Shown one piece after another: positions 43,530-61,500 of a stretch of DNA of 64,000 nucleotides (position 1 is the stretch's first letter; the number at the start of each line of letters is the position of its first letter). Location of the stretch: contig CM102285.1 of assembly GCA_046563655.1 (NCBI GenBank), forward strand, positions 13,330,001-13,394,000, read 5' to 3'. The position numbers were made by a program, and so were the translations under genes. The notes below the pieces were generated by a model, which saw only the letters and a program-made list of their open reading frames with translations, was not told where the DNA came from and did not search any database. Source of the DNA: Yuukianura sp. NJ FZ-2021 (lineage: Eukaryota).

Positions 43530-43550
43530 CTCAATTTCCGACGACGGGAC

Positions 43551-46537
43551 ATGGAAGCGTTTCTGGCTCTGGCTTCAGCAGCACAGGGTGATGACTCGTC
43601 TCCGACGAATAGTCTAACGGACTTCCGGAAAAACAACAACAATAGAACCAAGAGTCCAAGTCCATCACGCTCACAGTTCCTCCTGCCCCACCTCTCTCCG
43701 CGAGGGGGCGGTGTTCTTGACAATGGTCACTACTGGAAGTATCTAGTGGGAGAAGGGGGGCGCGGAGGAATGGTACCGCAGGAGCCGGTCATGGCTGCTA
43801 CTACAGACAGTCCGGACGATCCTATTCTACGCCTCAAAAAATCCAAATCCATGAGTCCGACCGGTGAAACCGTAACAGACCGACTCGGAAGTTCAGAAAA
43901 TTTGACTCTGCGCGGCAACAATGTTCCTAATTGTATTGGATCGGCAAGACTCAAGAGTCCGGCGGCCGAATCCGTTGGAGATCGAAGTGACGTTGAACGA
44001 TTCGATGGGAAAATTGTGTACAATCCAGACGGATCTGCCTACATCATAGAAGATTCGGAGATGAGTGAAGAGGAGAGTTTACCAACATTGGAGGGAGCAA
44101 TTGTTGATGGACGTGGGGTGAGTTTGAGTTCGGCTTTACCGCAAATTGCCAATGCCTTCTACGTCTCACGGAATCCGGCTCTGGTTTCGGCTCTTTACGG
44201 TCAGGCCGTGACGAGTCTCCTGGGCGACTCCAAATCCAAAGTTCCTGACATACCGATTATGCATAGCTACAGGGTCTACTCTTGCCGTGATAATAAAAGT
44301 GGTGATAGCCGAGCAGTAACGAATGGAGACGAGGACGAAAGTCCCAGCGACAGAGATGAGCTCGACGACGAGGCGGAACGGAAAGACGCGACCCCCGCCG
44401 ACTACTCTTCAGTTCCTATCAAACCGATCCTAATGTGCTTTATGTGTAAACTCTCCTTTGGTTACACAAAGTCCTTTGTGGGCCATGCCATGGGTGACCA
44501 CAGTCTGAGTCTCTCGGACCAAGAGAAGCGCCTCCTCTCCCAGCGAAATGTTTCAGCCATCATCCAAGCCGTCGGCAAGGTCAAGGACCCACTCATCTCC
44601 TTTCTCGAGCCAATGGGCAACTCCGTTCCTATTACTACAAACAACTCCCCGGCACCAGTTCCTACTCTCGCACGGTCCTTGTCGGCTCATGCGCAGAGCA
44701 AAAATGATCTTGTCCCACCCGAAGGCCCACCGAACAACGTGGGAGCCAATCGCAAGTCACCCGCCTCGTCACCCGAACTACACTCTCCGCGGAAAGATGA
44801 CCAAGGCGGCAGTTCATCTTCGTTACCAATTTCGTCTCACTCGAGTAAGTTGTCGGCTCTTGTCGGAAGTGGAGCGGGAATGGGCATGGACTTGACCAGA
44901 AAAAGTCCAGTGAGTGGCAGAAGTAGTGTGAGTCCAGGAAATAGCGTTTCTCCAGCCCCAACGACTCCGAGCGCAGGCGTCGTGACCAGTCCTTCTCAAT
45001 ACTCTATGAATTTGACAATGGGAAACAACAATGGGCCACCTAACTTCATGACTGGGACTACAATAGGGGTTTGTCCAGAACATATGAATGGACGACCAAG
45101 CGGAGTCGACTGTTCCAAATGTGAACTCATCCTTAACTCTAGTCGGATGGGAGCTCTTGGAAGTCTCCATACGAGAAATAGTTGTAAAACACTCAAATGT
45201 CCCAAATGTAACTGGCACTACAAGTATCAAGAGACGCTGGAAATTCACATGAAGGAAAAGCATCCAGACAATGAAACGAGTTGTATCTACTGCATCGCAG
45301 GTCAACCGCATCCGCGATTGGCTCGCGGAGAAACGTATACGTGCGGGTACAAACCCTACCGCTGCGAAGTTTGTAACTACTCGACAACAACCAAAGGGAA
45401 TTTGTCTATCCACATGCAGTCAGACAAGCATTTGAACAACATGCAAGAAATTCAAAATGGCGGCGTCCCTCCTCCAGAGTCACTCGTCAACCAGTCACCA
45501 CAAGCTGCGCAGACGCAAGCGAAAGCTCCAGGCATGAGTCCGTCACCGAGTGCTGGGGGTGGAGCTAATGGTCAAGCTCTGTCTGTATCCCAGTCACCAA
45601 AACCGAAACCAACATTCCGTTGTGAAATTTGCAATTATGAAACCAATGTTGCTCGAAATTTGAGAATTCACAACACAAGTGAAAAACATACTCACAACTA
45701 CATGGTCATCCAACAAAATGTGAAGCATATGCAACATCTCAATGCTCTGCAGCAGCAAGCGCCCTTTGACCCCGCAGCTCTCCTGCAATTCCATCCGCAA
45801 CTGTCCGCTTCCTTGTCAGCAGCAGCAGCAGCTTCTGGAAGCGGCGGTGACAAAGGTGGGCCACATAACGAAGCAGCCCTAGCTGACATGGCGTACAATC
45901 AAGCTCTACTTATTCAACTCATGACTGGAGGTCAACTGCCACCCCACATTCCACCAGAATTGGCTCCTCATATGGACTTAGGACTCAATCCAGACACGAT
46001 GGAACCCCCTCCAGAACCACCAGATCCAAATCCAACTCATCTTTTTACATGTTGTGTCTGTACTTCCTTTAACACTGACAACCTGGAGTCACTTTCCCAT
46101 CATTTGACCCATGACCGAACCAAAGTCCGGGAGTCAGACAGTCTCGTCCTTGTCCATGGGAACTACTTGTGTAAACTCTGTTCCTACAAAACCAATCTCA
46201 AAGCCAACTTCCAACTTCATTGCAAAACGGACAAGCATCTCCAACGTCTCCAACATGTCAATCACATCAAAGAGGGTGGACTTCGTAACGAATGGAAACT
46301 AAAGTACTTGAGCATGAGTAATCCCATTCAAGTTCGCTGTAACGCCTGTGACTACTACACGAATTCGGCCCACAAACTCCAACTTCATGCTGCTAATCAA
46401 AGACACGAAATCTCTGTCCTCATCTTCCGCCATCTTCAGTCCCAAGAGGCTGTCATGCATGAAGACGCTCGAATCTACGTCTGCGCTCTCTGTGGCTTCA
46501 CTACGAGAGTCAAACTTCAACTTCTTCAACATACTCG
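43551..46537 (+). CDS. zfh2: zfh2 coding exon 1 (N-terminal zinc-finger clusters)
   Basis: Part of ORF 43551..46718. The exon probably opens at acceptor ...ttttgtttctttttAG|43447. It ends CAT ACT CG|GTCAGT (phase 2); the protein-like sequence stops at QHTR and the remainder of the ORF is intron-like. The start ATG is inferred. Confidence 0.9.
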
Positions 46538-49500
46538 GTCAGTACTTTTCATACTCTCTGAAGTACTTCCAAGTATAATTAATTACTTTTTTTTCATTAT
46601 CACCTTCCAACCACTTAACCTCTTTGGAAATTGGTATTTTAGAGGGAGTGGGCACTCGCAGATGAGATTCCTAAGGTTAATTCAATTGTGTTTCTCACCT
46701 AATGTGAAAAAAGTATGAGGTGGACTCTAGTGCAATTAGCAGATGAACAATAAGTTAAGGAAACTGGTCTCTCTCTCTCTTGTTTCCTTGTAATGAATAT
46801 TGAATTACGTCGTAAATTCCTTATCCATTAGTTGCTTGACAATTGAAATTACAAGGGAGGTAAAGAATAATACTCTTTTTTTTACTTTACTTTATGCTAT
46901 GTCCCAGAATTACCCTAACATTTTAACATATGCTATGCTTCTATGGCCTTAAATCCAGAGAGCAAGTAATTAAAGTCAAGGTGTCTCGTTTTTCCAACAA
47001 GTTCAATTCAGTTTATGAGAAGAGACGAGCTGTTTCGTCCATCTTCTGAGTGAAGATGGAGAGATTTAAATAAAACATCTTTGTACATTGTACAAAATAC
47101 AATAGGAATCTCTTGTAACCCATTTAACGTTTGTTGTACTTTGAGAGAGGGAGAGAAATTTAATTAATTTGAAAACCTTACCGTAATTTACACAAGTACC
47201 GTTAAATTTTTGTACGAAAAAAACACGAAACACGACAAGGGGAGGTTGTTGATCGTTGTTTGAAGTAATTTGAAAATGATTCAGCAAATTGACAATCATT
47301 CAAACTTGTAACATTTGTTGAATTGTTTAACAAAAAAGAAACTGAGTTACAAAAAATTAGTTTTGTGTTGATTAGTTAAGTTCAGGGTTTTAGTGTATTT
47401 GATGGTTCAGTAATTAGTCTAGAGTAATTATGATTAGTTAATTACACTAAAATTACTAATTGGAACTAATGTCAAATGTTTTCTTGTAGATCTCTAAAAC
47501 ATCTTCAACTGGAACAGCTTCATAGTCTCCAGCGACGTGCTGAGGGGAAAGATGGTATTCCAGACTTGGTTCAAATTTTTCGTGTTCTGGAACAACCCGA
47601 TTCAGCCGATTCTCCAGGCCCTCCAAATTCTGGACATCAACAGACGCTTCTGGACTACTTCAGTGATCCAGGTAAGCAAAAAATCCATTCGTTGCTTGAT
47701 ATCTTGTTCTCTTGTTTTTAATTTAGTACTTTATTTAAGTAGAAATGCTTTTAAGCAATGCAGCAGCAGCAGGAATTTATTAACTTGTTATGGTTAGGGA
47801 GTAATGTTGAGGCCATCGTCCATCCCAGAGACTCAAATTGTTGTTTTGAGATAATTAAGTTGATTTGTTGGTCATTTTCCCTAAGTTAAGACGGACGTAG
47901 AATATGGGATAGGTGCATTACTTTTAATTTAGTGCTTACGGCCCATTAGAGACTCATGGAAGATGAAGGAATTGTCACTTTATGGAAATGGGCAAAGGAT
48001 AACGTAACATGAACACCTTTACCCCCTCATAAAAGTCTCGACATTTAAAATTTTTCTGAAATTATGAGGGGACGTTAGGAGCAAAATGACATGGAAATTA
48101 GTAAATGGTTTTTAGGACATGAAAAACTGTCACTATTTTTTGAAAATTAATGCCCTGTAATCAATTACTAATTAAGAATTCACTAAACATGTCTACAGCC
48201 TACCCTAACAAAAAAATGCTTCAACAAAGCTTATGTGCGCATTCACTTATTTTATTAATAATGGAGGAAGTAACTATGACCATTAATGCGGAGGGAGTAA
48301 CTATTTGCACCTTAAGCACCAATCATCAACCCATGTTGTCACTCTTTTTTTTCCAGAATAAGTGTCCATAATTTTATTAATGAGTTCCATACTAAACTAG
48401 TTCCGCCACTATGCTAACTTTTTTTTCCTTTGATGTTTGGGGGTGGTGAGTCCTTAAGTTCGTTTTTGTGTGTCACTTGAGAGCTAGTGAAAATGGATTG
48501 ATTGTTATTTGTCCTAAAATTGGAAGGAAGGAGTATTTAGACGCTAGAGAAGGGAAGTGTTAGGAGAAAGTAATCATTTGTTAGTCCACGACATAAATAT
48601 TTAAGGAGAAAGTTGGAGTGGACTTTTGAATAATAGGGACAACCAAAACCATTACAAAGTTTGCTTACAAAAGGTGTAAAAACGAAAAAAGAAAGACGTT
48701 TTCAACGCGTACTAGCACAAGAACAATTCAAAACAAGAGGGTTTTGGAGTGGACACTTTGTGAAAGAAAAAAAAGTATGGGGGGATATTTATTTCTTCTT
48801 TTCTTTTTTCAAGATTTTTTTTCTTTTGGAAAAGACGAATTATGTAGGGTGTCAGGGACCAACGGTGAGATACAGACGGTTAGTGGTGTTAGCATATGTC
48901 CATTCGGATCAGGTTGCATCATCTTCAGCATCACAAAAGTTTTTATTTGAGACGTTTTGTTGTTTGGCAAGATTCGGAGGATAACCATATTTCCTATTTT
49001 TGGTGACATTCAAAGTGTCATGTACAGTTTGAAAAATGGGCGTAGATTTTCCATACATGTTGACGTTATTTTATTTTTGGGTGTTGAGAATTTTGAAAAT
49101 GATGCATAGCTAAAGTAAGATGATGCATCTGGAAAGAGAAACAAAAGGGGGCGATTAAGTTAGTGTTGTTATGTGTTGGAAGTGGAAATGAGAAGGTGTG
49201 AATCCTTAAGTGTCATTTGCCTACTTGAAAAGATCTTTTGTCTTGAACTTTTTAAGAGTCCATTCAACTAGGTAGAGGATATTAGTCTCAGATGAAATTA
49301 AGACTTGATGAGGGTGGAGAGAACAAAAGAGAGGAGAATTTTTGAGGACTGATTCTCCCCTCATGGAATCTGTAATGAGATTGGAAATAATTAACTTCAT
49401 GTTCTAATTAATTCTCACCTGGGAACTTACTAAAAGCTTAAGACTATTCTTCTCACGCTGAAAATTAAAGTGACTGAGCAGAAAGAACGGAAAGTCAAGG

Positions 49501-52500
49501 GCATGGAGGGGTGTGACATTAGACACAAAAAAAAAACAAGAAAAAACCAAGGTCAAAGAAATTAAATTTTAAGAAAAGTAGAATTTGGTTTGATAATTCA
49601 TAGTAAAAAAAATTAGTGGTTTAAGTGTTTATTAACGTTAATTTTAATTGACTTTGGTTTTAATTAACTTGTCCTTGAGAGGCACAAAGTGGTTTTTGGG
49701 AGGCGCTGGACAAATTGGCCAACTTTTTTTTTTGGTAATTTGCAATTTTGCAAATTTTCCAACTTTTAACATAATTTTTTGTATCTTCCAGACATAAGAT
49801 GAGATCAGTTTTTTGGTACTACAAGAGGTTAGGGTTGGATGATTCATTTTTGTCAGCTAGTCTTCTCTACTATTCTGTGTAATGATGAGAAAGTAGAATT
49901 TTTTGGCTAATTATCACCTCCACTGAAGCATCCGCTTTGTACAATCACTTTGGCCCCACCCAAAATCCACCCGTCCCACCATCACCTGCCTTGGCGTCTG
50001 TCATGGACAAAGTTTCTGCCTAATCGCTTCCCCTCCCCTCTGTTTTTGTTTTTCATGATCTTCAATATCCTACCCCTCCTCCTGTTTTGTCTTTTGATTC
50101 CTTTGAGAGCGGAAGGTTAGGCAATGCATCTGAAAGCAATTCCATTGTACTTTTCTTATTCCTCATCGGGATTCTTCTGTTTTCCATCATTTCATCCCTA
50201 GAAAACATTTTTTTTTATTCTTGAGGGATAATTTTGATCACGGATCAATGGTTTTTTCTTTTTCTTCATTTTCAAAAAAAGTGATACGCTTGAGTGCAGA
50301 AAAGGTTTCTCCGAAATGAGCTAAAAGACAAAAAGTAAAAAGAGATTGGAGAAGATGCCGCTCCATAGTTTTCGGTCTATTGGAAACAAAAGGAAATGCA
50401 AACAATTACAGTTTTTACATTAAGGATACTTCAGGTCGGTTTTCAAGAAAAAGATTAGAGGTTTTTGAAAAAGTTAAAATTTCTTTAAAAAAAAGTTTGA
50501 AATTTTTTTTTCTTAATTTTGGTGGTTGCATGACACTGAACTCAAGGTCTATTGTTCCGTTGTACCTGAAGGAATATGGCGAGTCTGTCTGGTTCCAAAA
50601 ATTTTTGGACATAATCCCAATTAGGACTTTTAATAACAATGGGAAATTAGAAAAAATTATAGGGAAGGTGGTAAAAAAAGAGTAATTAGATGCTTCCGAA
50701 GTCAGAGAACCCGCCTTGCCCTGTGCATTTACACTAGTAAGCATAGTATCTCCCACTAACATCTGAAACAAAAGCATTTAAGAACAACCTTTCTGTGTAA
50801 GTTCAAACACGAACTGACAAACTTGCTCATGAACTCTTCATTTTCATGACATCCATAAAAAGATGAACACGAAGGAGTCAAACTGGAACTTTGACGAACA
50901 GAACTTGTCCAAAGGGCATTTTACGCGAATTTGAGTTTTTGAGTGGAGGTGGAAGGTTTTTGCAATTTTGCAATTTTAGGAAGAGTTTGAAAAGCTGCTG
51001 CTGCAAATTAGGAAACAAAGCTTTTGGCAAGTTAGGTTATGTTTTTGCATGCATTTTCACCTTTTTTTGCTAAACCTTATGGCTTTTTGTAAAAACTAAT
51101 TGAAATTGCCCCCATCAAAACTAGATAAGGAGATGATTCTGAAGAAGGAAGCAGCCAGCGTCCTCAAACATGCCCTTGAAAAGGAATCCTCTGACCTCAA
51201 TGATCTCAGTTGTCCATATTGCACGTTCGTCACTGACTCGGAGACAAGACTCACACAACATTTGACCTCACAGCATTCTGGAAGCGATTTGTCATCTTCA
51301 CTCAATTCAAGTTCATCAGGCGGAAGTGGTCAACGCCCAAGAACATCCGATGGACCACGAGCACCTTCGACCTCCCCCGAATCAAAATCGGACAACTCCG
51401 GAATGACTTGTCCACTATGTCAAGAACCATGTCACGACCGACCTAATCTAGAGTCACATGTCATGTCAGTCCACTCTGTCAATGCCGAAGGACTTCAACG
51501 TATTCTACTGCTGGTCAACCACTCGGGGTGGATGAATCCGTCACCACCAACTAAACAACAGCAGTCAGCCAATCAGAGCTACTCGTCATCCGGAGATCTT
51601 AAATCAGACTCAAATGATGAAAATGAAAAAGACAAATCCGAGAGTGAGAGCTTCCAAGACGAAAATTTGGAGTCAGAAGATGTGAGATGTTCAACTTGTT
51701 CCAAACTTTTCCGAAGTCTAGATGACCTCTGTCACCATCAAAATGACCTTGGGCACTTTGAGGTCAAACAATCCCCTGGGGGCATAGTGTACCTCTGCTG
51801 GAAGAAAGGCTGTAACCAGTACTTTAGCAGTCCAACGACACTTCAAAATCACTTTCGAGAGATACACTACTTCCGACGCAGAAATTCCACGGCTGCGCCA
51901 GTCACCGTTTCAGAAAAGCATATCCACAAGTTTCGCTGTAACCAATGTTCACTTGCATTCAAAACAATGGAAAAACTTCAAATTCATGCCCAGTATCACA
52001 CGATTCGTGATGCTTCAAAATGTAATTTTTGTGGCAGAAGTTTTCGTTCTGTTTTGGCTCTTCAGAAACATGTAGAAACGAGTCATGCTGAACTAAGTGA
52101 AGAGGAATTGGCAACTTTCAAACAAAGAATTGCATCTAATCCACTCCTCCTAGCGGGAATAACTGGGCAAGTTTTGGATTCAGCTATGAATGAACTGTTG
52201 AAAAAAGAATCAGCTCGAGATGATCAAGAAATGATGGAAGTAGATGAAAGTGGAGAAGCAGTTGAAAGTGGAGATGGAGATTCTAATGATTCCGGAGGAA
52301 GTAAAGATCAGCAACAACTTTTTGAAGACTATTTGAACACACAGGCAATGGCTGAAGATTCGTACAATGATCCTACAAGAAAATACAAATGTCATAGATG
52401 TAAAGTTGCTTTTACAAGACAAAGCTACTTGACCTCTCATAACAAAACGTTGTTACACCGCAAAGGAGAGAAATTGAGTTACCCTATGGAAAAATACCTT

Positions 52501-55500
52501 GACCCGAATCGTCCTTTCAAATGTGAAGTTTGCAAAGAAAGTTTTACTCAAAAGAATATTCTTTTGGTTCACTACAATTCAGTAAGCCATCTTCATAAAC
52601 TCAAAAGGGCTATGCAGGAACAACAGGCATGGACACAAGGGAATAACAACAATACTAACGTCATGGTTCCACCAAGTCCACTCATGAGTCCAGCAAGTTC
52701 CAAAGGAACTCCAGTGACGACGCCAGGAATCGAACCGAAATTTAGCTCTGCGCAGACTCCGTCAACGGCTGAAGATGAAGACAAAAAACCGTTTAAATGC
52801 AACATTTGCAAAGTAGCGTACAGCCAAGGATCGACTTTGGACATCCACATGCGCAGTGTCTTGCATCAGACTCGGGCGTCAAAGTTACAAGAATTGGCAC
52901 TAAGCGGACAAATTGACCTGTCAAAACCACTAATTGAACAACCAGAAGTCGGCAGAGGCGTTACTGATCAACACAAAAAGTTAATGCAGGACATGATGAG
53001 TCCCAAGGGCGATGGATCATTCAATTCCACTTCCACGCCTGCGCGTTCCTCTTCTCCAGCTTCCAGTTCCAGTCCACAAACGACACTTTCCAGCGTGTCT
53101 CCAGCCCAAGCCGTTCCATGTTCCCGATGTGGAACGATCTGTTCCTCGCAAGAATCTTTGCTCCAGCATCAGCATCTCTACTGCCTCTTCTCAGCTAATC
53201 CACTAGCATTATTTCCACCTCTACCGTCACCCAATTCCACTTCAACTCCAAACACTTCTCTATTGGCTGAAAGTGGACGAGAACGCAGTGGATCTCCAAT
53301 GGACTCCTCGGATGCAGTCGGAATCAGTCGGTTTGTCCTGCCGAGTCGAAAGTCATCTCAACTGTACAAGCACATACTGGAGTCATATGGTTTTGAGATT
53401 GTAATGCAATTCAACGAGTATCATCAGAAGCGACGAAGGGAGGCGGAGCGTGGAGAGGAAGTCGAGGAAAGTGAATTGGACGAGCGAATCCTCAAGGAGT
53501 TTCCAGAACTGGCCAAGTCCACGTGCCCATTTTGCAAAAAAGTCTTTTCTTCTGTTTGGATTCTGAAGGCTCACTGTGAAGAGATTCACAAGGACGTTGT
53601 ATCTATGGAGACACTGGAGAGTTTTGCAGAAATATTTCGGTGTTCCTATATCAAAAAGTTGGAATCCTCTGGAGACAGTCCTTTTGAAAATGAAGAAAGT
53701 ACTAATGGTAATCAAGGAAACGGACAACAGAGTCAGAAGGAAGACCGAAATAATCAACTCAGAGCACCATCTCCGCCTACAGCTTCTGTCACACCAGCTT
53801 CCAGTGCTGAATCGGTGTCTGGTGGTCCAGGATCTGGAATGCCAAATATGACAACGCCAGTTCGAGACAGAGAAACACGAGAAAGTCCGGCCAGTGGACC
53901 ATCAAATCTTAGTTCAACATTTGCTCAGCAAATGAGTGATGTCCAAGCAGCTTTGGCTTCAATGGCAGCAGCATCTCAACTTTCTCAACATTTACATCCA
54001 ATGATGAATCCAATGATGATGGCCAGTCTGGGCATGGCTCTGCCGCTTGGACTGAATATGAATGCCCTGGCTGCGATGAATCTGCAACCACCGTTAGTTC
54101 CTATGATGATGCCAAGTCCATTTGATCACCCTATGAACTCACTCCAAAATCAAAACATGAATAATCAAAATGCTGCTCTCTTCTCTGCAGCCGCGGCAGC
54201 ACTTGAGAATCAAAATCATCCAAGAGAGCAACATACCAAACAGCAGCAACAACAACAAGCTCAACAGTCTATGCCCAACGTCCCCGTTCCGCCACCGACC
54301 ATTCCACCTCCAGCTCCTAGTGGTCAAGGACAACAAAAACGAGCACGAACGCGCATAACTGATGATCAATTGAAAATTCTAAGAGCACATTTCGACATTA
54401 ACAACTCTCCATCTGAGGATCAAATTTCTCAAATGGCTGCGCAATCCGGTTTACCACCGAAAGTTATCAAACATTGGTTTCGTAATACTTTGTTCAAAGA
54501 GCGTCAGAGAAACAAGGACTCACCCTACAACTTTTCCAATCCACCTTCAACTACATTGAATTTAGAAGAATATGAAAAAACAGGAGAAGCCAAAGTGAAA
54601 GCAATTGATCCCGAGGAACAAAAACACTACGAGAATCCTACTCCGACACCTCCTCCACCAATCAAAAAAGAAAATACCAAGAAACCAACTAATCAAGAAA
54701 AACAGGCAGCGACAATTAGTCAACAACAATTGGCTCAACAGCAACAACAGCTACAACAACAATTGTTGACTTCACATCTCCAAGCACTTCAACAACATCA
54801 CCAAGAGTCCCTGACTGCCTACAGTCATCATCCCGATCTACACGAAATGCTTATGGGTGGAGAATTTTCTGAAACGGAATCTCGGAGTGAAGAAGAAGTT
54901 GTGGCAAAGGCAAAGAAAACACCGAAACAACATTCTGCTCCGAAAAAACCGAAAATTGACCATCATCACGACGGAGTCACTTCTCCAGGCGGAAGTTTAA
55001 ATTTGTCAATGAATGCCCATGCGCATGAAAGTTCTTCCTTATCATCATCCCCATCACCCCAACAAATGCTTCCACCACCTAAAGGCTTTGCTACACCAAC
55101 TTCACTACCAACAGCCAACAGTATGCTGTCATTAGCTTCTCCAGTCAATCTCAATAGTCCTGGAAGTAGTTCTGGAAGGGGCGAAGGCAATTCCATGACA
55201 ACTCCACCACTTTCCAACTGCCCAAGTCAAAGTTCAGGAAAAAGAGCTAATCGAACGAGGTTCACTGACTATCAAATCAAAGTCCTCCAAGAATTTTTTG
55301 AAAACAATGCGTATCCAAAAGATGACGATTTGGAATATTTGAGTAAACTACTTGGGCTCAGTCCGAGAGTAATCGTCGTTTGGTTTCAAAATGCAAGGCA
55401 AAAGGCTCGAAAAGTTTATGAAAATCAACCTCCAGTGGATGCACCAGAAGAAGGAGCTGGAAGATTCCAAAGAACGCCAGGACTCAACTACCAGTGCAAA

Positions 55501-58500
55501 AAATGTTTGCTTGTCTTCCAACGCTACTATGAATTGATTCGACATCAGAAAACACATTGTTTCAAAGAAGAAGATGCCAAGAGATCGGCACAGGCGCAAG
55601 CAGCAGCAGCCCAAGTAGCAGCGGCCATGTCTTCAGAAGATTCAAATTCCAGCGCCATTACGGACAACAATAGCTTGACTTCCAGTTGTGGTCCGAGTCC
55701 TGGAGCCCTTGCGATGGCCAACTGCAATTCAAATCCAGCAGGGATTTCTCCAGGATCAGCAAATTTTGGTGGATCTAATGAAAATTTGAAACCAATTCCA
55801 GTCAATTCCAATTCAGAAGAAACTTTTCAATGTGAAAAGTGTAACCTCGTTTTTCCAAGATTCGAACTTTGGCGGGAACATCAGTTGGTCCATCTCATGA
55901 ATCCGAGTCTCTTTCCATCATTTCCTGGTGAAAATCCATTTGGACTGTTGCAACAACACGCGCAGGCGCAACAACAAAATCAGTTGCTCAACCAGCAACA
56001 GCAACAACAAATCAAAATGGAACCGAAAGAGTCACAACAGAGTCCAAGTGAAACAAGTTCAATTGCAGGAGACGCGACTTCGGGCAAGCGGAAATGGTCA
56101 GCTGATGAGCATACGGAAGATGACGAAGTAGGTCACGATGGTCAAGCAAGAGACAAGCGTCTGCGCACAACCATTCTTCCAGAACAACTCGACTACTTGT
56201 ACCAAAAGTATCAAATTGAAAGTAATCCAAGCCGAAAGATGTTGGAAACAATAGCACGAGAAGTTGGGCTGAAGAAGAGAGTTGTTCAAGTTTGGTTTCA
56301 AAATACAAGAGCAAGGGAGAGGAAAGGACAATTTAGAGCTCATGCGCAAGTCATCAACAAACGCTGTCCATTTTGTCCAGCACTGTTCAAGGTCAAGTCG
56401 GCACTCGAAACTCATTTGGCAGGAAAACATGGAGATCAGTACAGCAAAGGAGAGATTAACATTGATGCAATTCCAGACGAAGACTATGATGCGCCTGCGT
56501 CACCTTTGGCCAGTGGTGGTGACAGTTCAAAGGGAGGTCACGGTGGATACGGATCGAATCCAACTGGATCCGGCTCACCTTCACCAAATATCTTGATGGC
56601 TCCGTTTCTTCATGGACTTTCGACTCACACCGACCTTGAATCGAACATGAAACTGTACGAGGAAAGTTTGAAGCGATTTGCAGCTCAAGTTCAACAACAA
56701 CATCAGCAACAACCGAGTCACAACGGCCGATCCGAACAGATGATGACCGATCTTCGGATGCTAAAAGGCGAACCGGGCGGGGGAGGAGGCGGATCGGCGG
56801 AATTTCCACTTGACCTCTCCAAACCAGTTGACCTGTCGAGAACAGTCGTGCCAAAAGTGGAAGACTCGATTGACAATGACTACATGTCAGGTGAGTAAAA
56901 TTTGAAATTTGTTTTTGTTCGTTTTTTGAAATTTTGAATCTTGTCTTTCTCTGTTTTTGTGTATGAATGAAAATATATATGGAGAGGTCGAGGAATGTTT
57001 TTACCCTGTGCACTGCACTTGCGCTCTAATTACAATCAGCGCTTTAGCTTTCATCCTCTTTCTCAAATCCGAAAACTGAAATTTTGAAATCCTGTCCTGA
57101 ATTTTTTTTTTGCGATGACTTTGGAGGCTTGACCTTTGACATATTCGGCCTATCATGAGGGAGCGTCCGAGTGAAGTGCACAGAGGTGACAGCATCCCTT
57201 AAGTCTCACTAGAAACTCAAATTGTAATTCTGGCGCTGCCCCACTCTTAACAGATGATGATGATGACGATATACTGGACGCCTCTCATGATAGCATTCCA
57301 AATTCACCAGCATCGAGCACTGCGTCGGCGCAGAGAGAGTGGTGGTTCTGGAGGGGGAGACGGTGGGTCAGCCGCCGTGGGGTCAAATGGTGGCAAAAGA
57401 TTTCGAACTCAAATGTCAAGTCTCCAGGTCAGCTGAAAAGCGTTGACTTCTTCGTTACTTCAAAAAAGATTTCGGTTAACCATTTTTTCTTTTATTTTGC
57501 AATTTGCATTTTGCACATTTTTTGCGAAAGGAGAATGTGAACATTGTGCATTGTGTGGTTTTGGATAACGATGAGAATTTGTGTGCTTTATGTCTTCTTT
57601 TTCTGTTGACTTCATCTTTAAGTTCCCAGTTCCGTTGGAAGCTTTTTTCTTGCATGAGAATTTTGAGCATTCTCAAATGGAAGAATTTTCCGTTTTTTCA
57701 CATTTGACTTTTTTCGGTCGTTTTTTCTTCTTGTGGAAAGGAAAAGTGATTGAGATGATGTTTTATGGCTCATAAGACGAGGAAATTCCTTCATAAAAAG
57801 TTTCCAATCTCTTGTTATTCGACTGGCGACAAGAGACACACGCGGGAGTGGCGCTTTGCAATTTTTTTTTACTTGTTTTTGCTGGGAAATCGGCTCTGTT
57901 TGCATAAAGTTGTCACAAATTCAGCATTTTTTTTAAATTCCTGTTTTGTTTTCCTGCTTGTCCACTTTGTTCTTGTTTGTATGATGCTTTTGTATAGTTG
58001 TTAATCCTGCGGATTAAATCGTGGATCAGAGGCTTTGTATTTTAGCTAATTGCTGCATTTTTTTTTAAATTTAAATTTTCAATTTTTTTTTCCAAAATGT
58101 TCAGGTGAAAGTGATGAAGAATCTGTTTGCTGACTACAAAACTCCGACAATGGCTGAATGTGAAATGCTTGGAGAAGAAATTGGGCTACCAAAGCGCGTA
58201 GTTCAAGTTTGGTTTCAAAATGCTCGAGCAAAGGAGAAGAAAGCCAAACTTGTACTGCAAAAAGCAGGGGTCGTTGACCCCTCTGACCTCACTCCCCCCA
58301 AACCACTAGAACTCTGTAGACCCTGTGACTTTACTTACTCTCCCAAAGTATCCGTTCAAGATCACATTTTTACTAGAGGTCACATTGACTCTGTCAAGGC
58401 TTCAATTCAAAACAACAAGTCCATCAAGAAGGTCAAAGTTCATGCATCACTTCCACCTCCACCTAGACAGAAGAACATTGCTTCGTCGAATCTCGTCACT

Positions 58501-58530
58501 GCTGGTAAGCCAAAAAATCTCCACAGCTGA
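43551..58530 (+). CDS. zfh2: Zinc finger homeodomain protein 2 (ZFHX3/ZFHX4/ATBF1 orthologue), multi-exon gene, about 3,180 aa
   Basis: Family-typical motifs: [118 protein letters not shown]. Four homeodomains at about 54334-54513, 55240-55419, 56152-56331 and 57392-57427+58105-58245. Exons join by GT-AG introns with compatible phases, apart from the frame anomaly in exon 4. Confidence 0.96.
47490..47671 (+). CDS. zfh2: zfh2 coding exon 2 (completes a zinc finger: QHTR|SLKHLQLEQ)
   Basis: Acceptor ttttcttgtAG|A gives CG+A=Arg then SLKHLQ, supplying the last His of the CALC...H...H finger. Donor CCA G|GTAAGC (phase 1). Confidence 0.9.
51125..56890 (+). CDS. zfh2: zfh2 coding exon 3 (5,766 nt; many C2H2 fingers, homeodomains 1-3)
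   Basis: Within ORF 51100..56898. Acceptor ctAG|AT gives G+AT=Asp in frame, with a CTAAT branch-like motif at 51096-51100. Donor TCA G|GTGAGT (phase 1). Confidence 0.92.
54721..54761 (+). repeat. CAA/CAG polyglutamine-encoding tract within zfh2 exon 3
   Basis: Encodes QQQLAQQQQQLQQQ; similar tracts at about 54241-54258 and 55993-56010. Confidence 0.8.
57254..57427 (+). CDS. zfh2: zfh2 coding exon 4 (acidic/Ser-Pro linker and N-terminal arm of homeodomain 4); internal frame discontinuity
   Basis: Acceptor ctcttaacAG|AT reads DDDDDILDASHDSIPNSPASSTASAQRE in the incoming phase, but SGGSGG...GGKRFRTQMSSLQ is in the +1 frame. Donor CAG|GTCAGC (phase 0 in the homeodomain frame). Confidence 0.8.
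58105..58530 (+). CDS. zfh2: zfh2 coding exon 5 (remainder of homeodomain 4 plus C-terminal zinc finger)
   Basis: Acceptor ...aaatgttcAG|GTG. Reads VKVMKNLFADYKTPTMAECEMLGEEIGLPKRVVQVWFQNARAKEKK then CRPC...HIFTRGH; TGA at 58528-58530. A donor G|GTAAGC after 58504 may be used instead of this stop. Confidence 0.88.
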   Translation: MKVMKNLFADYKTPTMAECEMLGEEIGLPKRVVQVWFQNARAKEKKAKLVLQKAGVVDPSDLTPPKPLELCRPCDFTYSPKVSVQDHIFTRGHIDSVKASIQNNKSIKKVKVHASLPPPPRQKNIASSNLVTAGKPKNLHS

Positions 58531-61500
58531 TTCTGCCTGCGCTGAAATCGCTTCAAAACCAATCATGCCCACACACATTCGCGCTAAATTTTTGGAAAAC
58601 TGGACAAAAGGGGTTGAAAAGACTGATGGAGTCAAAAACAAAAGTTCCCATATTTTAGAAAATGTTTGTGCCAGAGTAATGTGCTTCTCTTTTTGAAAAA
58701 AGAGAATTTAGAATTTTAGAAAAAAGTGTTGAGGTTTTTTGTGTCGAAGGAAAGTGAACAGAAGGTTAGTGTTTAGCATTTGTCAAAGAAGGTAGCTAAA
58801 AACTATTTTAGAACAAGAGAAGTGATTTTTAGACGAACGTTGTTTAGATAAACGATTGAAAAAACCCAGTGGCTAAATTATGTATTCATATTAACAAAAA
58901 GGTCAACAGAAATAAGGTCAACAACTAAAATTTACTAAAAATAGGTAAAGTTATAGTCTAAAATGAAAAACTAATACAAATCATGGTTCAAGATTCCTAG
59001 TACGCTTGACGTACAAACTTTTTCTTTTGTTATATTTTCCTTTTTTGCTTTTTGTTAATTATTTAAGTTATTAGTTAAGTCAAGTTTAATTAATTAATTT
59101 ATATTTTAAGTTTATGGTTTTTATTAGTTCTCTAAGTTTACCATTTTTTATAAACTTAAGAATTCGTTTTGTTTAGGTTTTTCGAAGAGAGGAAATTCAA
59201 ATTGTTTTGTTCATTTTGTCTTTTTTTCAGTTTAGTTTGTATACACACAGTTTATTAATTTCCAGTGATTTTTTTTTCTCTCTCGAAAACATGACACGTT
59301 AAAAAACAAAATTTTGAAAAACGGAAATACAAGGAAATTGAAAAGTTGAAGCAACTGGATGAACAAGAAGATTATCTTTTTATTTCATTTTTTGCATAAT
59401 TTTTGCTAATTTTCCGCAACTGTTTTTTATACTTGGGTTTTCACTTTGTTTTTTTCGGGGGGAGGAGGAAGGGGCGGAGGCATTTTTGGCACATTGTTAA
59501 AAGATGCAAAAGAGAGGAGGCTGGAGGGCATTGCCCTTCTTTTTGTGTAAGTTTCTTCGTGGCTAATAATGAGAAGGTTGTTGTTGAAATTACATGCGAA
59601 TCTTTTCCTAGTGAGAAGAATTGAAAAGATGTTTGAAAAAAAGAGACTGAGGAAGATGCGATTAAAGTTGGTTTTTCTCAGGTGAATTGGTAACATAAAA
59701 AAGCAGTAAGATGGTGGTGCCAATTAGATGTTCTCGCCTCAATGCCCATGGAGACAATGCAAGTGTGAAACAGTGTCTCTCTGCAATAATTCAAAGATTT
59801 TTCAACACTGTTCTGCTGCTAGACACTTAAATTTTTAGAGTTGTTCGATGGAACTAATTTATTGTGTAGAAAAGAATAGGAAATGGCAGAAGTAGTCGAT
59901 TAATTGGAGCAACCAGCCAATCAAAAACCGAAGTAGCAGTTGTCAACGAATCAGAACGTGGCGGTCGATTTTGCAGTTTTTGAACGGAAAATTTTATTTT
60001 TGCATATATCCTTCTTCCTTCCAGCAAAACTGTTGTTCTTTCTTTTCTCCTGACCGAAAATCAGAATCTTTCTACACGGCGTTTGGATTATCCAACAATT
60101 AATGTTTTAAAATCTTCTTCGTTTTTCATGTTTTTAATCCATTTTGAAGCGTTAGGTACCCGTAGTCTGGTGTGTTGTTGTGTTTCTGGATTTGAAAAAA
60201 TTGAAATTTTGAAAAGTTAGAGATCTGACAGAAGAGACGGAGAGCGGTTTAGGGAAAATGTTTCTCAGTATGGAGCTAAGCATGTGCTCAAAGGGGGGTA
60301 TCAGGAGGCATAGGGTTTGTTTCTGTATTTGCCAAGTCATCTTTCACAGTTCAAACGGAAAGATTTTGACCCTTAAGTGTCCCCCTTCCCTTAGGTGAAG
60401 TAATTACAAAAGACTATTGGAATTTTGAATTGAGATTTTGGAAATTTCCAAGAGCGATTGAGCAAGATTTCCAAGACAAAAGTTTCCGATTCGGATCTGG
60501 ATTGAAACTGAAACAATTTGAGAGGCATTGTGTTTTAGTCCAACTGCTGGGCCTAAGTAGGGTTCCACTTCCTATGTTAAGTTAAGGTTATCCTAAATCA
60601 AACATTTTGAATTCGGATGTCGAGATCTCCTGAAATCTACATCTGAAGCATCTGCTGGTTACTGCTGAGTGGCTCAATCAAAGGAATTGTTGAACCTGGC
60701 ATTTATTTAGGGAAATAAAGGCGGGAAGGAACTCTCCATTGAGCGGTGGATTTCAATTGATACGGATATGCCCCCACAACAGGCTTAAAATCACACGGGG
60801 ACTATGTTAGGCTAAGGTTAGGTTAGGCATAACCTAACATTAGGTTTTAAGAACAAGGACGAAGACGACCATCAGATCCAGATGGAACAGCATCCGCCAA
60901 AGCACTTTCCAACCGACGACAGACGAGAATTCAAACATCTTGAACGAATGGTCTCCGCTGGCTCAATTTCAAAACGGTGTAATTGTACTGGCGTAGGGTT
61001 TGGAGTTTTTTAGAAAAACTTTTGAAAAATTGTCATTTTTTAATTAAAGGTTCCTCTTTGAAAATGACATTTTGGAAATATGAAGTTACGAGAGTGGAAT
61101 GAGGAATTGGAGATGTTGTGTTCATGTAGGCGTTGTTGTCGTTAGGCTTAAGGGACGCGATAAGTACACCGGGCTTTCTCTTTTTTTCTAATAAGGGACC
61201 CCTTTAGTCGGAGCTTGATGATGATGAAGTAAGTCAAGGGAAGAAAATGCCAAGTTTGCCTGAGATTAGTGTTGTGCAGGCCCTTCATGACGTTAGGCTA
61301 GGTTATGTTAGGTACATAACGTAAGGTTAGTGTGGACTTGGATCTTTGTGTCCTCCAAGGGCCCTTTATCAATCACTTTTATCTATAACCACTCAAGCGT
61401 CACAAAGAAGAGCCCTTCGACCGGTTCTTAAAAAGACACGAAAACTTTTCCTTAGCATGGGTACCCTTGTAGCATGTGTATGCTACGCCAAGGTACCCTT

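What the first reader, a model, noticed from the sequence alone, without database searches (positions are those of the whole stretch)
57254..57427. Frame switch in zfh2 exon 4 gates the fourth homeodomain
Seen: the five exons sum to 9,535 nt (3n+1). Entering at 57254 in the phase set by the 56890 donor gives protein-like DDDDDILDASHDSIPNSPASSTASAQRE, then implausible WWFWRGRRW..., and after splicing to 58105 ends SPGESDEESVC*, with no HD4. The intact HD4 arm (GGKRFRTQMSSLQ|VKVMK) is in the +1 frame, which is open across the whole exon, so both frames are stop-free for 174 nt. The switch most likely falls at CAGAGAGAGT (57331-57340), where one extra AG would give Q-R-E-S-G-G. Inference, three options: (a) an assembly or polymorphic 2-nt deletion in the AG repeat, the simplest; (b) a second acceptor cctctcatgatAG|57294, 40 nt downstream, that restores the HD4 frame with no indel, giving a splice switch between 3-HD and 4-HD proteins; (c) transcriptional slippage or +1 ribosomal frameshifting. 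Known: Drosophila Zfh2 has three homeodomains and vertebrate ZFHX3/4 have four.
Basis: partly seen in the sequence, partly recalled or inferred. Interest (0 to 1): 0.75.

Follow-up and report, generated by a model that had tools for sequence, protein, structure and literature searches.

The report
Missing bases break zfh2 reading frame
The apparent frame switch in this animal zinc-finger homeobox gene comes from a few DNA bases missing in this one copy, while other copies and relatives read straight through, so it is an ordinary sequence defect and not a regulatory device.

Summary
The five-exon model sums to 9,535 nt (3n+1). Exon 4 (57254-57427) starts in the frame set by exon 3 and ends in the frame of homeodomain 4.

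A profile of 115 orthologues matches the entry frame up to about 57339 (E 1.3e-6) and the other frame from 57365 (E 1.5e-10). One protein therefore needs both halves.

The cause is in the DNA. Allelic contigs of two public runs carry 11 extra bases behind 57337 (3n+2), which joins the two frames. Two related genomic loci with the same introns have exon 4 lengths of 149 and 164 nt, both 3n+2. The window has 174 nt, which is 3n. In 54 of 58 related loci with a hit, the segment lies in one frame; in none does it lie in two.

The 57294 acceptor would read the conserved NSPASST motif out of frame. Recoding is not needed. I could not tell an assembly or consensus error (about 0.5) from a real deletion allele (about 0.4). 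No RNA run and no reads of the assembled individual were available.

The intact gene is an ordinary four-homeodomain Zfh2/ZFHX3-4 orthologue. Interest is low.

The parts
43551..46537 (+). zfh2-like exon 1 (coding part, from the first in-frame ATG)
   Evidence: The ORF 43530-46718 holds PF24056 zf-C2H2_ZFHX3, E 3.7e-17. It is colinear with orthologues in tblastn. The donor TCG|GTCAGT lies at 46538. The choice of ATG was not tested.
47490..47671 (+). exon 2
   Evidence: tblastn match at 47488-47598. The acceptor is ttgtag|ATCTCT and the donor CAG|GTAAGC.
51125..56890 (+). exon 3, with three homeodomains and many C2H2 fingers; ends in phase 1
   Evidence: Pfam Homeodomain, 3 stretches, E 1.5e-50. 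The acceptor is aaaactag|ATAAGG and the donor CAG|GTGAGT follows 56890.
57254..57337 (+). first part of exon 4, coding in the entry frame (positions = 1 mod 3); holds the conserved NSPASST motif
   Evidence: Orthologue profile positions 33-60 match this frame, E 1.3e-6. L001 and L003 have the same acceptor position.
57337..57338 (+). break point: bases missing in the window (3n+2)
   Evidence: One search lists 11 letters (TTGGTGGGGGC) put in behind 57337. They are in X1 (1 contig, depth 114.7 of 114.7) and X2 (1 contig, 30.8 of 30.8). One search places a 2-nt gap in the window here against L001 and L003.
57338..57427 (+). second part of exon 4, coding in the other frame (2 mod 3); Gly/Ser-rich spacer and the first 12 residues of homeodomain 4
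   Evidence: Orthologue profile positions 63-83 match GSAAVGSNGGKRFRTQMSSLQ, E 1.5e-10. The donor CAG|GTCAGCTGA is the same in L001 and L003.
58105..58530 (+). exon 5: rest of homeodomain 4, a C2H2-like finger, stop codon
   Evidence: Pfam Homeodomain profile 13-57, E 4e-14. BLASTP to orthologues gives up to 71% identity. The ORF ends at 58530.
57292..57293 (+). AG of the proposed second acceptor (exon would start at 57294)
   Evidence: It restores the HD4 frame only in the window's broken version. It lies inside codons for the conserved SHDS.

Best explanation
The gene is an ordinary four-homeodomain Zfh2/ZFHX3-4 orthologue. It is read exon 3 -> 57254 acceptor -> exon 4 -> exon 5 in a single frame.

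The window's copy lacks a 3n+2 stretch at 57337/57338. That is 11 nt against allelic contigs of the same or a very close organism, and 2 nt in the alignment with relatives. This shortfall alone produces the apparent frame switch.

Shown: the defect is at DNA level and is private to this sequence. It is not a regulated switch. I put this at about 0.9.

Inferred: I lean to a consensus or assembly error at a G-rich stretch beside a short AG run, where alleles differ in length. Under that reading the animal makes the normal protein of about 3,181 residues.
For: -: one orthologue profile matches the entry frame up to about 57339 (E 1.3e-6) and the other frame from 57365 (E 1.5e-10). The third frame scores E 1.
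- contigs of X1 and X2 that are about 99% identical in the flanking introns carry 11 extra letters behind 57337. By my reading of the codons, GAG becomes GTT, three Gly codons follow, and AGT at 57338-57340 joins the HD4 frame. The neighbouring G>A at 57333 is synonymous in the entry frame (CAG>CAA).
- the X3 contig places 650 letters on 642 positions with 14 gap letters. That is 11 inserted and 3 removed by my arithmetic, net +8 = 3n+2.
- exon 4 is 149 nt in L001 and 164 nt in L003 (both 3n+2) against 174 nt (3n) here. 174+11 = 185 = 3n+2.
- of 80 related loci, 58 gave a profile hit. In 54 of these one single-frame hit spans both halves. In 0 are there hits in two frames.
- the other 9.3 kb of coding sequence is intact. 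Exon 5 is undamaged, so any real deletion would have to be recent.
- length variants in exon 3 (56445-56610) are net multiples of 3 in all listed contigs, as expected for a gene under selection.
- For the artefact reading specifically: two window-private differences (57333 and the indel) lie within 5 nt of each other, in a G-rich stretch beside an AG run.
Against: - No read of the assembled individual was seen, so an error is not shown.
- The window has other private differences where no error is suspected (57884, 58292-58293). It is therefore a truly distinct haplotype and could carry a real deletion.
- L001 shares the window's G at the 57333 position, so that difference need not be an artefact.
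- 9.3 kb of coding sequence without another frameshift argues against an error-prone assembly.
- The row for X3's own indels was not shown (28 rows were cut), so X3's state at the break is inferred only.
Confidence: 0.5

Rival explanations
1. The missing bases are a real, recent deletion allele in the sequenced animal or line. Spliced at 57254, its mRNA runs out of frame after ...ASAQRE and stops early in exon 5. Because this is the last exon, the transcript likely escapes nonsense-mediated decay. The product would have three homeodomains and lack HD4 and the C-terminal finger. It would probably be carried heterozygously.
For: - The window is a distinct haplotype with other private differences (57884, 58292-58293).
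- Indel polymorphism is common among the haplotypes laid. One search lists 12 indel rows in 2.3 kb and cut 28 more.
- The Gly/Ser spacer before HD4 varies from 9 to 41 residues among orthologues, so the tract is prone to length change.
- The window's G at 57333 is shared with L001.
- The rest of the coding sequence shows no sign of a poor assembly.
Against: - The allele is not seen in any contig of the 3 runs that cover the site (X1, X2, X3), although contigs drop rare variants.
- The segment and HD4 are conserved in all 115 orthologues examined.
- Other coding length variants in the same data keep the frame.
- Exon 5 is fully intact.
Confidence: 0.4
2. A regulated choice between the 57254 and 57294 acceptors switches between a protein without HD4 and one with it. 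A variant of this reading is that the 57294 acceptor rescues the deletion allele.
For: - AG|57294 restores the HD4 frame in the window's sequence. Its upstream pyrimidine share (0.55) lies within the range of the gene's other acceptors, 0.50-0.70.
- Thirteen nucleotides around it (TCTCATGATAGCA) are invariant in the window, L001 and L003. That is three sequences only, and the stretch codes for the conserved SHDS.
Against: - It reads the conserved NSPASST motif out of frame.
- In the intact alleles, and in L001 and L003, the same AG would remove 3n+1 nt (40, 28 and 31; my count) and destroy the HD4 frame. So it cannot be a conserved switch into HD4.
- Two other AGs (57318 and 57336) restore the frame equally well, so the arithmetic is not special.
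- All 115 orthologue proteins keep both halves in one chain.
Confidence: 0.04
3. Programmed +1 ribosomal frameshifting or transcriptional slippage at the AG run joins the two frames on an mRNA with the window's sequence.
For: Both frames are open across the exon, and the break lies at a short AG repeat.
Against: - Other DNA of the organism and related genomes encode the junction in frame, so no recoding is conserved or needed.
- There is no stop codon in the entry frame near the shift site. That frame stays open to 57540.
- Rfam gave no match in 56000-59000.
- No repeat or notable hairpin was reported in the exon.
Confidence: 0.01

Closest known systems
Arthropod Zfh2 / vertebrate ZFHX3 (ATBF1) and ZFHX4 zinc-finger homeobox proteins
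   Same: - Very large protein with many C2H2 fingers, including the ZFHX3-type finger PF24056.
- Three homeodomains in the big exon and a fourth at the C-terminus, followed by a finger.
- Colinear with insect orthologues.
- The pre-HD4 motif ...NP.SPASST...KRFRTQMSSLQ|VKVMK is shared.
- All 8 arthropod orthologues scanned have 4 homeodomain stretches.
- The class is described as having three to four homeodomains (PMC13078641, passages read).
   Different: The best protein identity is only 54-58% over the last 491 residues of exon 3, so no close relative is annotated. This copy has the frame break in exon 4. It was not checked here.
Frameshift artefacts or frameshift alleles in low-complexity coding tracts of draft assemblies
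   Same: A single 3n+2 length difference sits at a short AG run beside a G-rich stretch. It is private to one sequence, while other individuals and relatives are in frame.
   Different: Against the other contigs the difference is 11 nt with a neighbouring substitution. It is not a simple one-unit slip.
Alternative 3' splice-site choice (tandem or nearby acceptors)
   Same: A second AG 40 nt downstream could be used, and it changes the frame.
   Different: It would destroy a conserved motif, and it would break the frame in intact alleles and relatives. There is no RNA evidence.
Programmed +1 frameshifting of the antizyme / RF2 type (recalled, not tested against a model)
   Same: Two overlapping open frames in which the downstream part is conserved.
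   Different: There is no stop codon in the entry frame at the shift site. The shift is not conserved, because relatives are in frame at DNA level.

Membership tests
ZFHX2/3/4-Zfh2 class of zinc-finger homeobox proteins | Several homeodomains (three to four) in one very long protein | tested here: met
   There are 3 Homeodomain stretches in exon 3 (E 1.5e-50). Exon 5 holds profile positions 13-57 of a fourth (E 4e-14). Its first 12 residues are in exon 4. The class definition comes from PMC13078641 (passages read).
ZFHX2/3/4-Zfh2 class of zinc-finger homeobox proteins | Many C2H2 zinc fingers, including the ZFHX3-type finger | tested here: met
   PF24056 at E 3.7e-17 in exon 1, and zf-C2H2 at E 1.6e-25 in exon 3.
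ZFHX2/3/4-Zfh2 class of zinc-finger homeobox proteins | Colinear similarity to named orthologues over the whole length | tested here: met
   tblastn of P0053, P0041 and P0059 covers exons 1, 2, 3 and 5 in order. In one search, 787 proteins had E <= 0.001, and the named ones in the listed 120 are Zn finger homeodomain 2 or ZFHX3/4.
ZFHX2/3/4-Zfh2 class of zinc-finger homeobox proteins | Uninterrupted reading frame | tested here: not met
   The window's exon 4 is 174 nt (3n) where 3n+2 is required. The requirement is met by the allelic contigs of X1 and X2.
Programmed ribosomal frameshift site | The frame shift is conserved at DNA level in relatives | tested here: not met
   L001 and L003 have exon 4 in one frame. 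In 54 of 58 loci with a hit the segment is in a single frame, and in 0 it is in two. X1 and X2 contigs are in frame.
Programmed ribosomal frameshift site | Stop or pause codon in the entry frame at the shift site, plus a stimulatory element | tested here: not met
   The entry frame is open to 57540. There is no Rfam match, and no notable repeat or hairpin was reported. Rare-codon pausing is not testable here.
Regulated alternative 3' splice site | Both products keep conserved protein segments, and the site works the same way in relatives | tested here: not met
   The 57294 acceptor puts NSPASST out of frame. In L001 and L003 the same AG removes 3n+1 nt (my count).
Regulated alternative 3' splice site | Junction reads in RNA | not testable with these tools
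   No listed run is on record as RNA. No contig joined across an intron.

The most novel reading that the evidence does not exclude
The missing bases are a real allele in the sequenced animal, and the 57294 acceptor is used on that allele to regain the HD4 frame. That would be a natural splice rescue of a frameshift in a large developmental transcription factor. The invariant 13 nt around that AG in three species would then mark a latent acceptor.
Probability: 0.03. Interest if true: 0.5.

Novelty: not a real feature. Interest (0 to 1): 0.07.

Why it matters
It matters mainly for annotation. A gene caller run on this sequence will either truncate the protein before HD4 or invent an odd splice. 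The correct model is the five-exon, four-homeodomain protein with a note on the break at 57337/57338.

If the deletion proves real, it would be a natural C-terminal truncation allele of a dosage-sensitive developmental regulator. That would be of modest interest. Nothing here bears on new mechanisms of recoding or splicing.

Tried and rejected
- **RNA evidence:** no RNA holder was listed among the 5 runs found. None of the contigs laid joined across an intron. Splice use could therefore not be observed.
- **Own genome:** none is held for this window.
- **Earlier notes of this scan:** nothing by place or by sequence.
- **The window's frameshifted peptide or an intact short ORF in the protein collection:** a 78-aa query in the entry frame, lengths 'near', found 2 candidates and none scored.
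- **Same-species transcripts:** exon 5 as query with lengths 'longer' gave at best 70% identity. The exon-3 search gave at best 58% over near-full coverage.
- **Exact 36-mer of exon 4 in metagenome contigs:** 0 matches.
- **X4 (second study):** it does not cover 57324 onwards, so there is no independent study at the break.
- **X3:** its own indel rows were among the 28 not shown.
- **Rfam on 56000-59000:** no match.
- **Repeats in 57240-57440:** no direct repeats, only two short palindromes.
- **Acceptor strength by pyrimidine share:** it does not separate 57294 from the real acceptors.
- **Rejected:** the 'goes back' joint 58243->56400 seen in all four runs. It fits a contig of homeodomain 3, just left of the laid stretch, whose helix-3 bases resemble those of HD4.

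Full report
**What is there**

The region belongs to a large gene on the + strand. Its open frames carry a ZFHX3-type zinc finger, many C2H2 fingers and three homeodomains. A C-terminal exon holds Pfam Homeodomain profile positions 13-57. Orthologue proteins from a mayfly, a beetle and a thrips align colinearly with five coding blocks.

With canonical splice sites the model is 43551-46537, 47490-47671, 51125-56890, 57254-57427 and 58105-58530.

Exon 3 ends CAG|GTGAGT after 56890 with one base of a codon left over. Entering exon 4 at 57254 in that phase gives DDDDDDILDASHDSIPNSPASSTASAQRE and then WWFWRGRRW.... The other open frame gives ...SGGSGGGDGGSAAVGSNGGKRFRTQMSSLQ and continues into exon 5 as VKVMKNLF...WFQNARAKEKK.

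**Both halves belong to one protein**

A search with the last 491 residues of exon 3 returned 787 proteins at E <= 0.001 among 8,000 scored candidates. Of these, 120 were listed. The best were 54-58% identical, and the named ones are mostly insect 'Zn finger homeodomain 2' or 'zinc finger homeobox protein 3/4'.

I took the 70 residues before the exon-4/5 junction equivalent from 115 of the 120 listed proteins. I dropped P0101, whose match was to a different homeodomain. I also dropped the proteins whose BLAST match did not start at residue 1 of exon 5; P0036, P0061, P0058 and P0011 are the ones visible.

- All 115 have KR[FY]RTQM[ST].
- 99 of 115 have an xP.SP motif upstream of it.
- In the 104 that match both patterns used for the spacing count, the spacer between them is 9-41 residues, median 20.

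A profile built from these segments matches the window's entry frame with profile positions 33-60 (E 1.3e-6). It matches the other frame with positions 63-83 (E 1.5e-10). The third frame scores E 1. An orthologue-like protein therefore needs the entry frame up to about 57339 and the other frame from about 57365.

**The cause is in the DNA**

Five public runs from two studies hold parts of the stretch, and none is on record as RNA. I laid four of them. No contig skipped an intron, so they behave as DNA.

- **X1:** the only contig over the site has depth 114.7 of 114.7. It carries 11 letters (TTGGTGGGGGC) put in behind 57337 and A for G at 57333.
- **X2:** the only contig over the site has depth 30.8 of 30.8 and carries the same two differences. 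It spans 57106-57488 with only three other mismatches, so it is allelic and not a paralogue.
- **Effect on the reading:** by my reading of the codons, CAG>CAA is synonymous and GAG becomes GTT. Then GGT GGG GGC follow, and AGT at 57338-57340 falls into the homeodomain frame. The spacer becomes 32 residues, within the orthologue range.
- **Total length:** 9,535+11 = 9,546 = 3 x 3,182.
- **X3:** the contig is not counted with that insertion, but its own indel rows were cut from the output. It places 650 letters on 642 positions with 14 gap letters. That is 11 inserted and 3 removed, net 3n+2. This is arithmetic, not observation.
- **X4 (the second study):** it does not reach the site.

**Relatives**

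A scan of metagenome contigs with exon 5 gave 80 loci. The orthologue profile found a hit in 58 of them. In 54 of these a single hit in one frame spans both halves. In none were there hits in two frames.

L001 and L003 keep the same introns and the same donor context, CAG|GTCAGCTGA.

| Sequence | Exon 5 identity | Exon-3 tail identity | Exon 4 length | Length mod 3 |
|---|---|---|---|---|
| L001 | 84% | 80% | 149 nt | 3n+2 |
| L003 | 70% | 55% | 164 nt | 3n+2 |
| Window | (query) | (query) | 174 nt | 3n |

A phase-1 entry and a phase-0 exit require 3n+2. MAFFT places a 2-nt gap in the window between GAGAG and TGGTGG against both relatives.

- **(a) A DNA-level indel.** It is right in kind and place. 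The size is 11 nt against the other contigs.
- **(b) The 57294 acceptor.** It restores the frame only because this copy is broken. It would read NSPASST out of frame. In the intact alleles, and in L001 and L003, the same AG would remove 40, 28 and 31 nt, all 3n+1 (my count). Two more AGs, at 57318 and 57336, would restore the frame equally well, and pyrimidine content does not distinguish any of them.
- **(c) Recoding.** It is not needed. It also lacks a stop codon in the entry frame at the site and any Rfam or repeat signal.

Four homeodomains are the norm. All 8 arthropod orthologues scanned have four, and the class is described as having three to four (PMC13078641, passages read). Nothing is being 'gated'.

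**Error or allele?**

I could not settle this.

For an artefact:
- Two private differences lie within 5 nt of each other, in a G-rich stretch beside an AG run.
In X1 the flanks have depths 172.8 and 207 against 114.7 at the site. In X2 the flanks have 156.6 and 122.3 against 30.8.
- The window's version is absent from the contigs of all three covering runs.

For a real allele:
- The window has other private differences where no error is suspected (57884, 58292-58293).
- It shares G at 57333 with L001.
- Its remaining 9.3 kb of coding sequence is clean.

Contigs drop rare variants, and a filter removes some records, so absence from the contigs proves little. I put the artefact at about 0.5 and a recent deletion allele at about 0.4. 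If the allele is real it probably yields a three-homeodomain protein truncated early in the last exon.

**Verdict**

This is an ordinary four-homeodomain Zfh2/ZFHX3-4 orthologue from an arthropod-like animal with no close annotated relative. Its exon 4 is broken in this sequence by missing bases. It is not a new mechanism, and interest is low.

Noticed in passing
window 57283-57295: Thirteen nucleotides (TCTCATGATAGCA) are invariant in the window, L001 and L003, while neighbouring third codon positions vary. The stretch codes for SHDS and holds the AG of the 57294 site. With only three sequences, this could be chance, a splicing enhancer or a latent acceptor.
   Followed up: partly
window 56445-56610: In the Gly/Ser-rich part of exon 3, contigs of all four runs differ in length from the window by net -3 or +3 letters (table 8). 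These are in-frame length polymorphisms.
   Followed up: partly
window 58292-58293: Adjacent double difference CT>TG in all three covering runs. By my reading it changes Thr to Met in the window's exon 5. It is one of several alleles private to the window (also 57333 and 57884).
   Followed up: no
window 57106-57488: In X2 the only contig laid here has depth 30.8, while the flanks have 156.6 and 122.3. In X1 the contig over 57297-57408 has depth 114.7 between flanks of 172.8 and 207.
   Followed up: no
window 58201-58243 and 56400-56450: A 'goes back 1844' joint appears in all four runs. It fits a contig of homeodomain 3, which starts left of the laid stretch. Its helix-3 bases resemble those of homeodomain 4. 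It is a cross-match and not a rearrangement.
   Followed up: partly
window 57428-58104; L001 2331-3000; L003 2328-3000: The intron that splits homeodomain 4 between profile positions 12 and 13 is kept in L001 and L003 with nearly the same length (677, 670 and 673 nt) and an identical donor context, GTCAGCTGA. Many other loci have no intron at this place.
   Followed up: partly
window 1-43500: Only 11 stop-to-stop frames of 130 aa or more lie in the 43 kb upstream of the gene. This may be a long gene-poor flank. It was not annotated.
   Followed up: no
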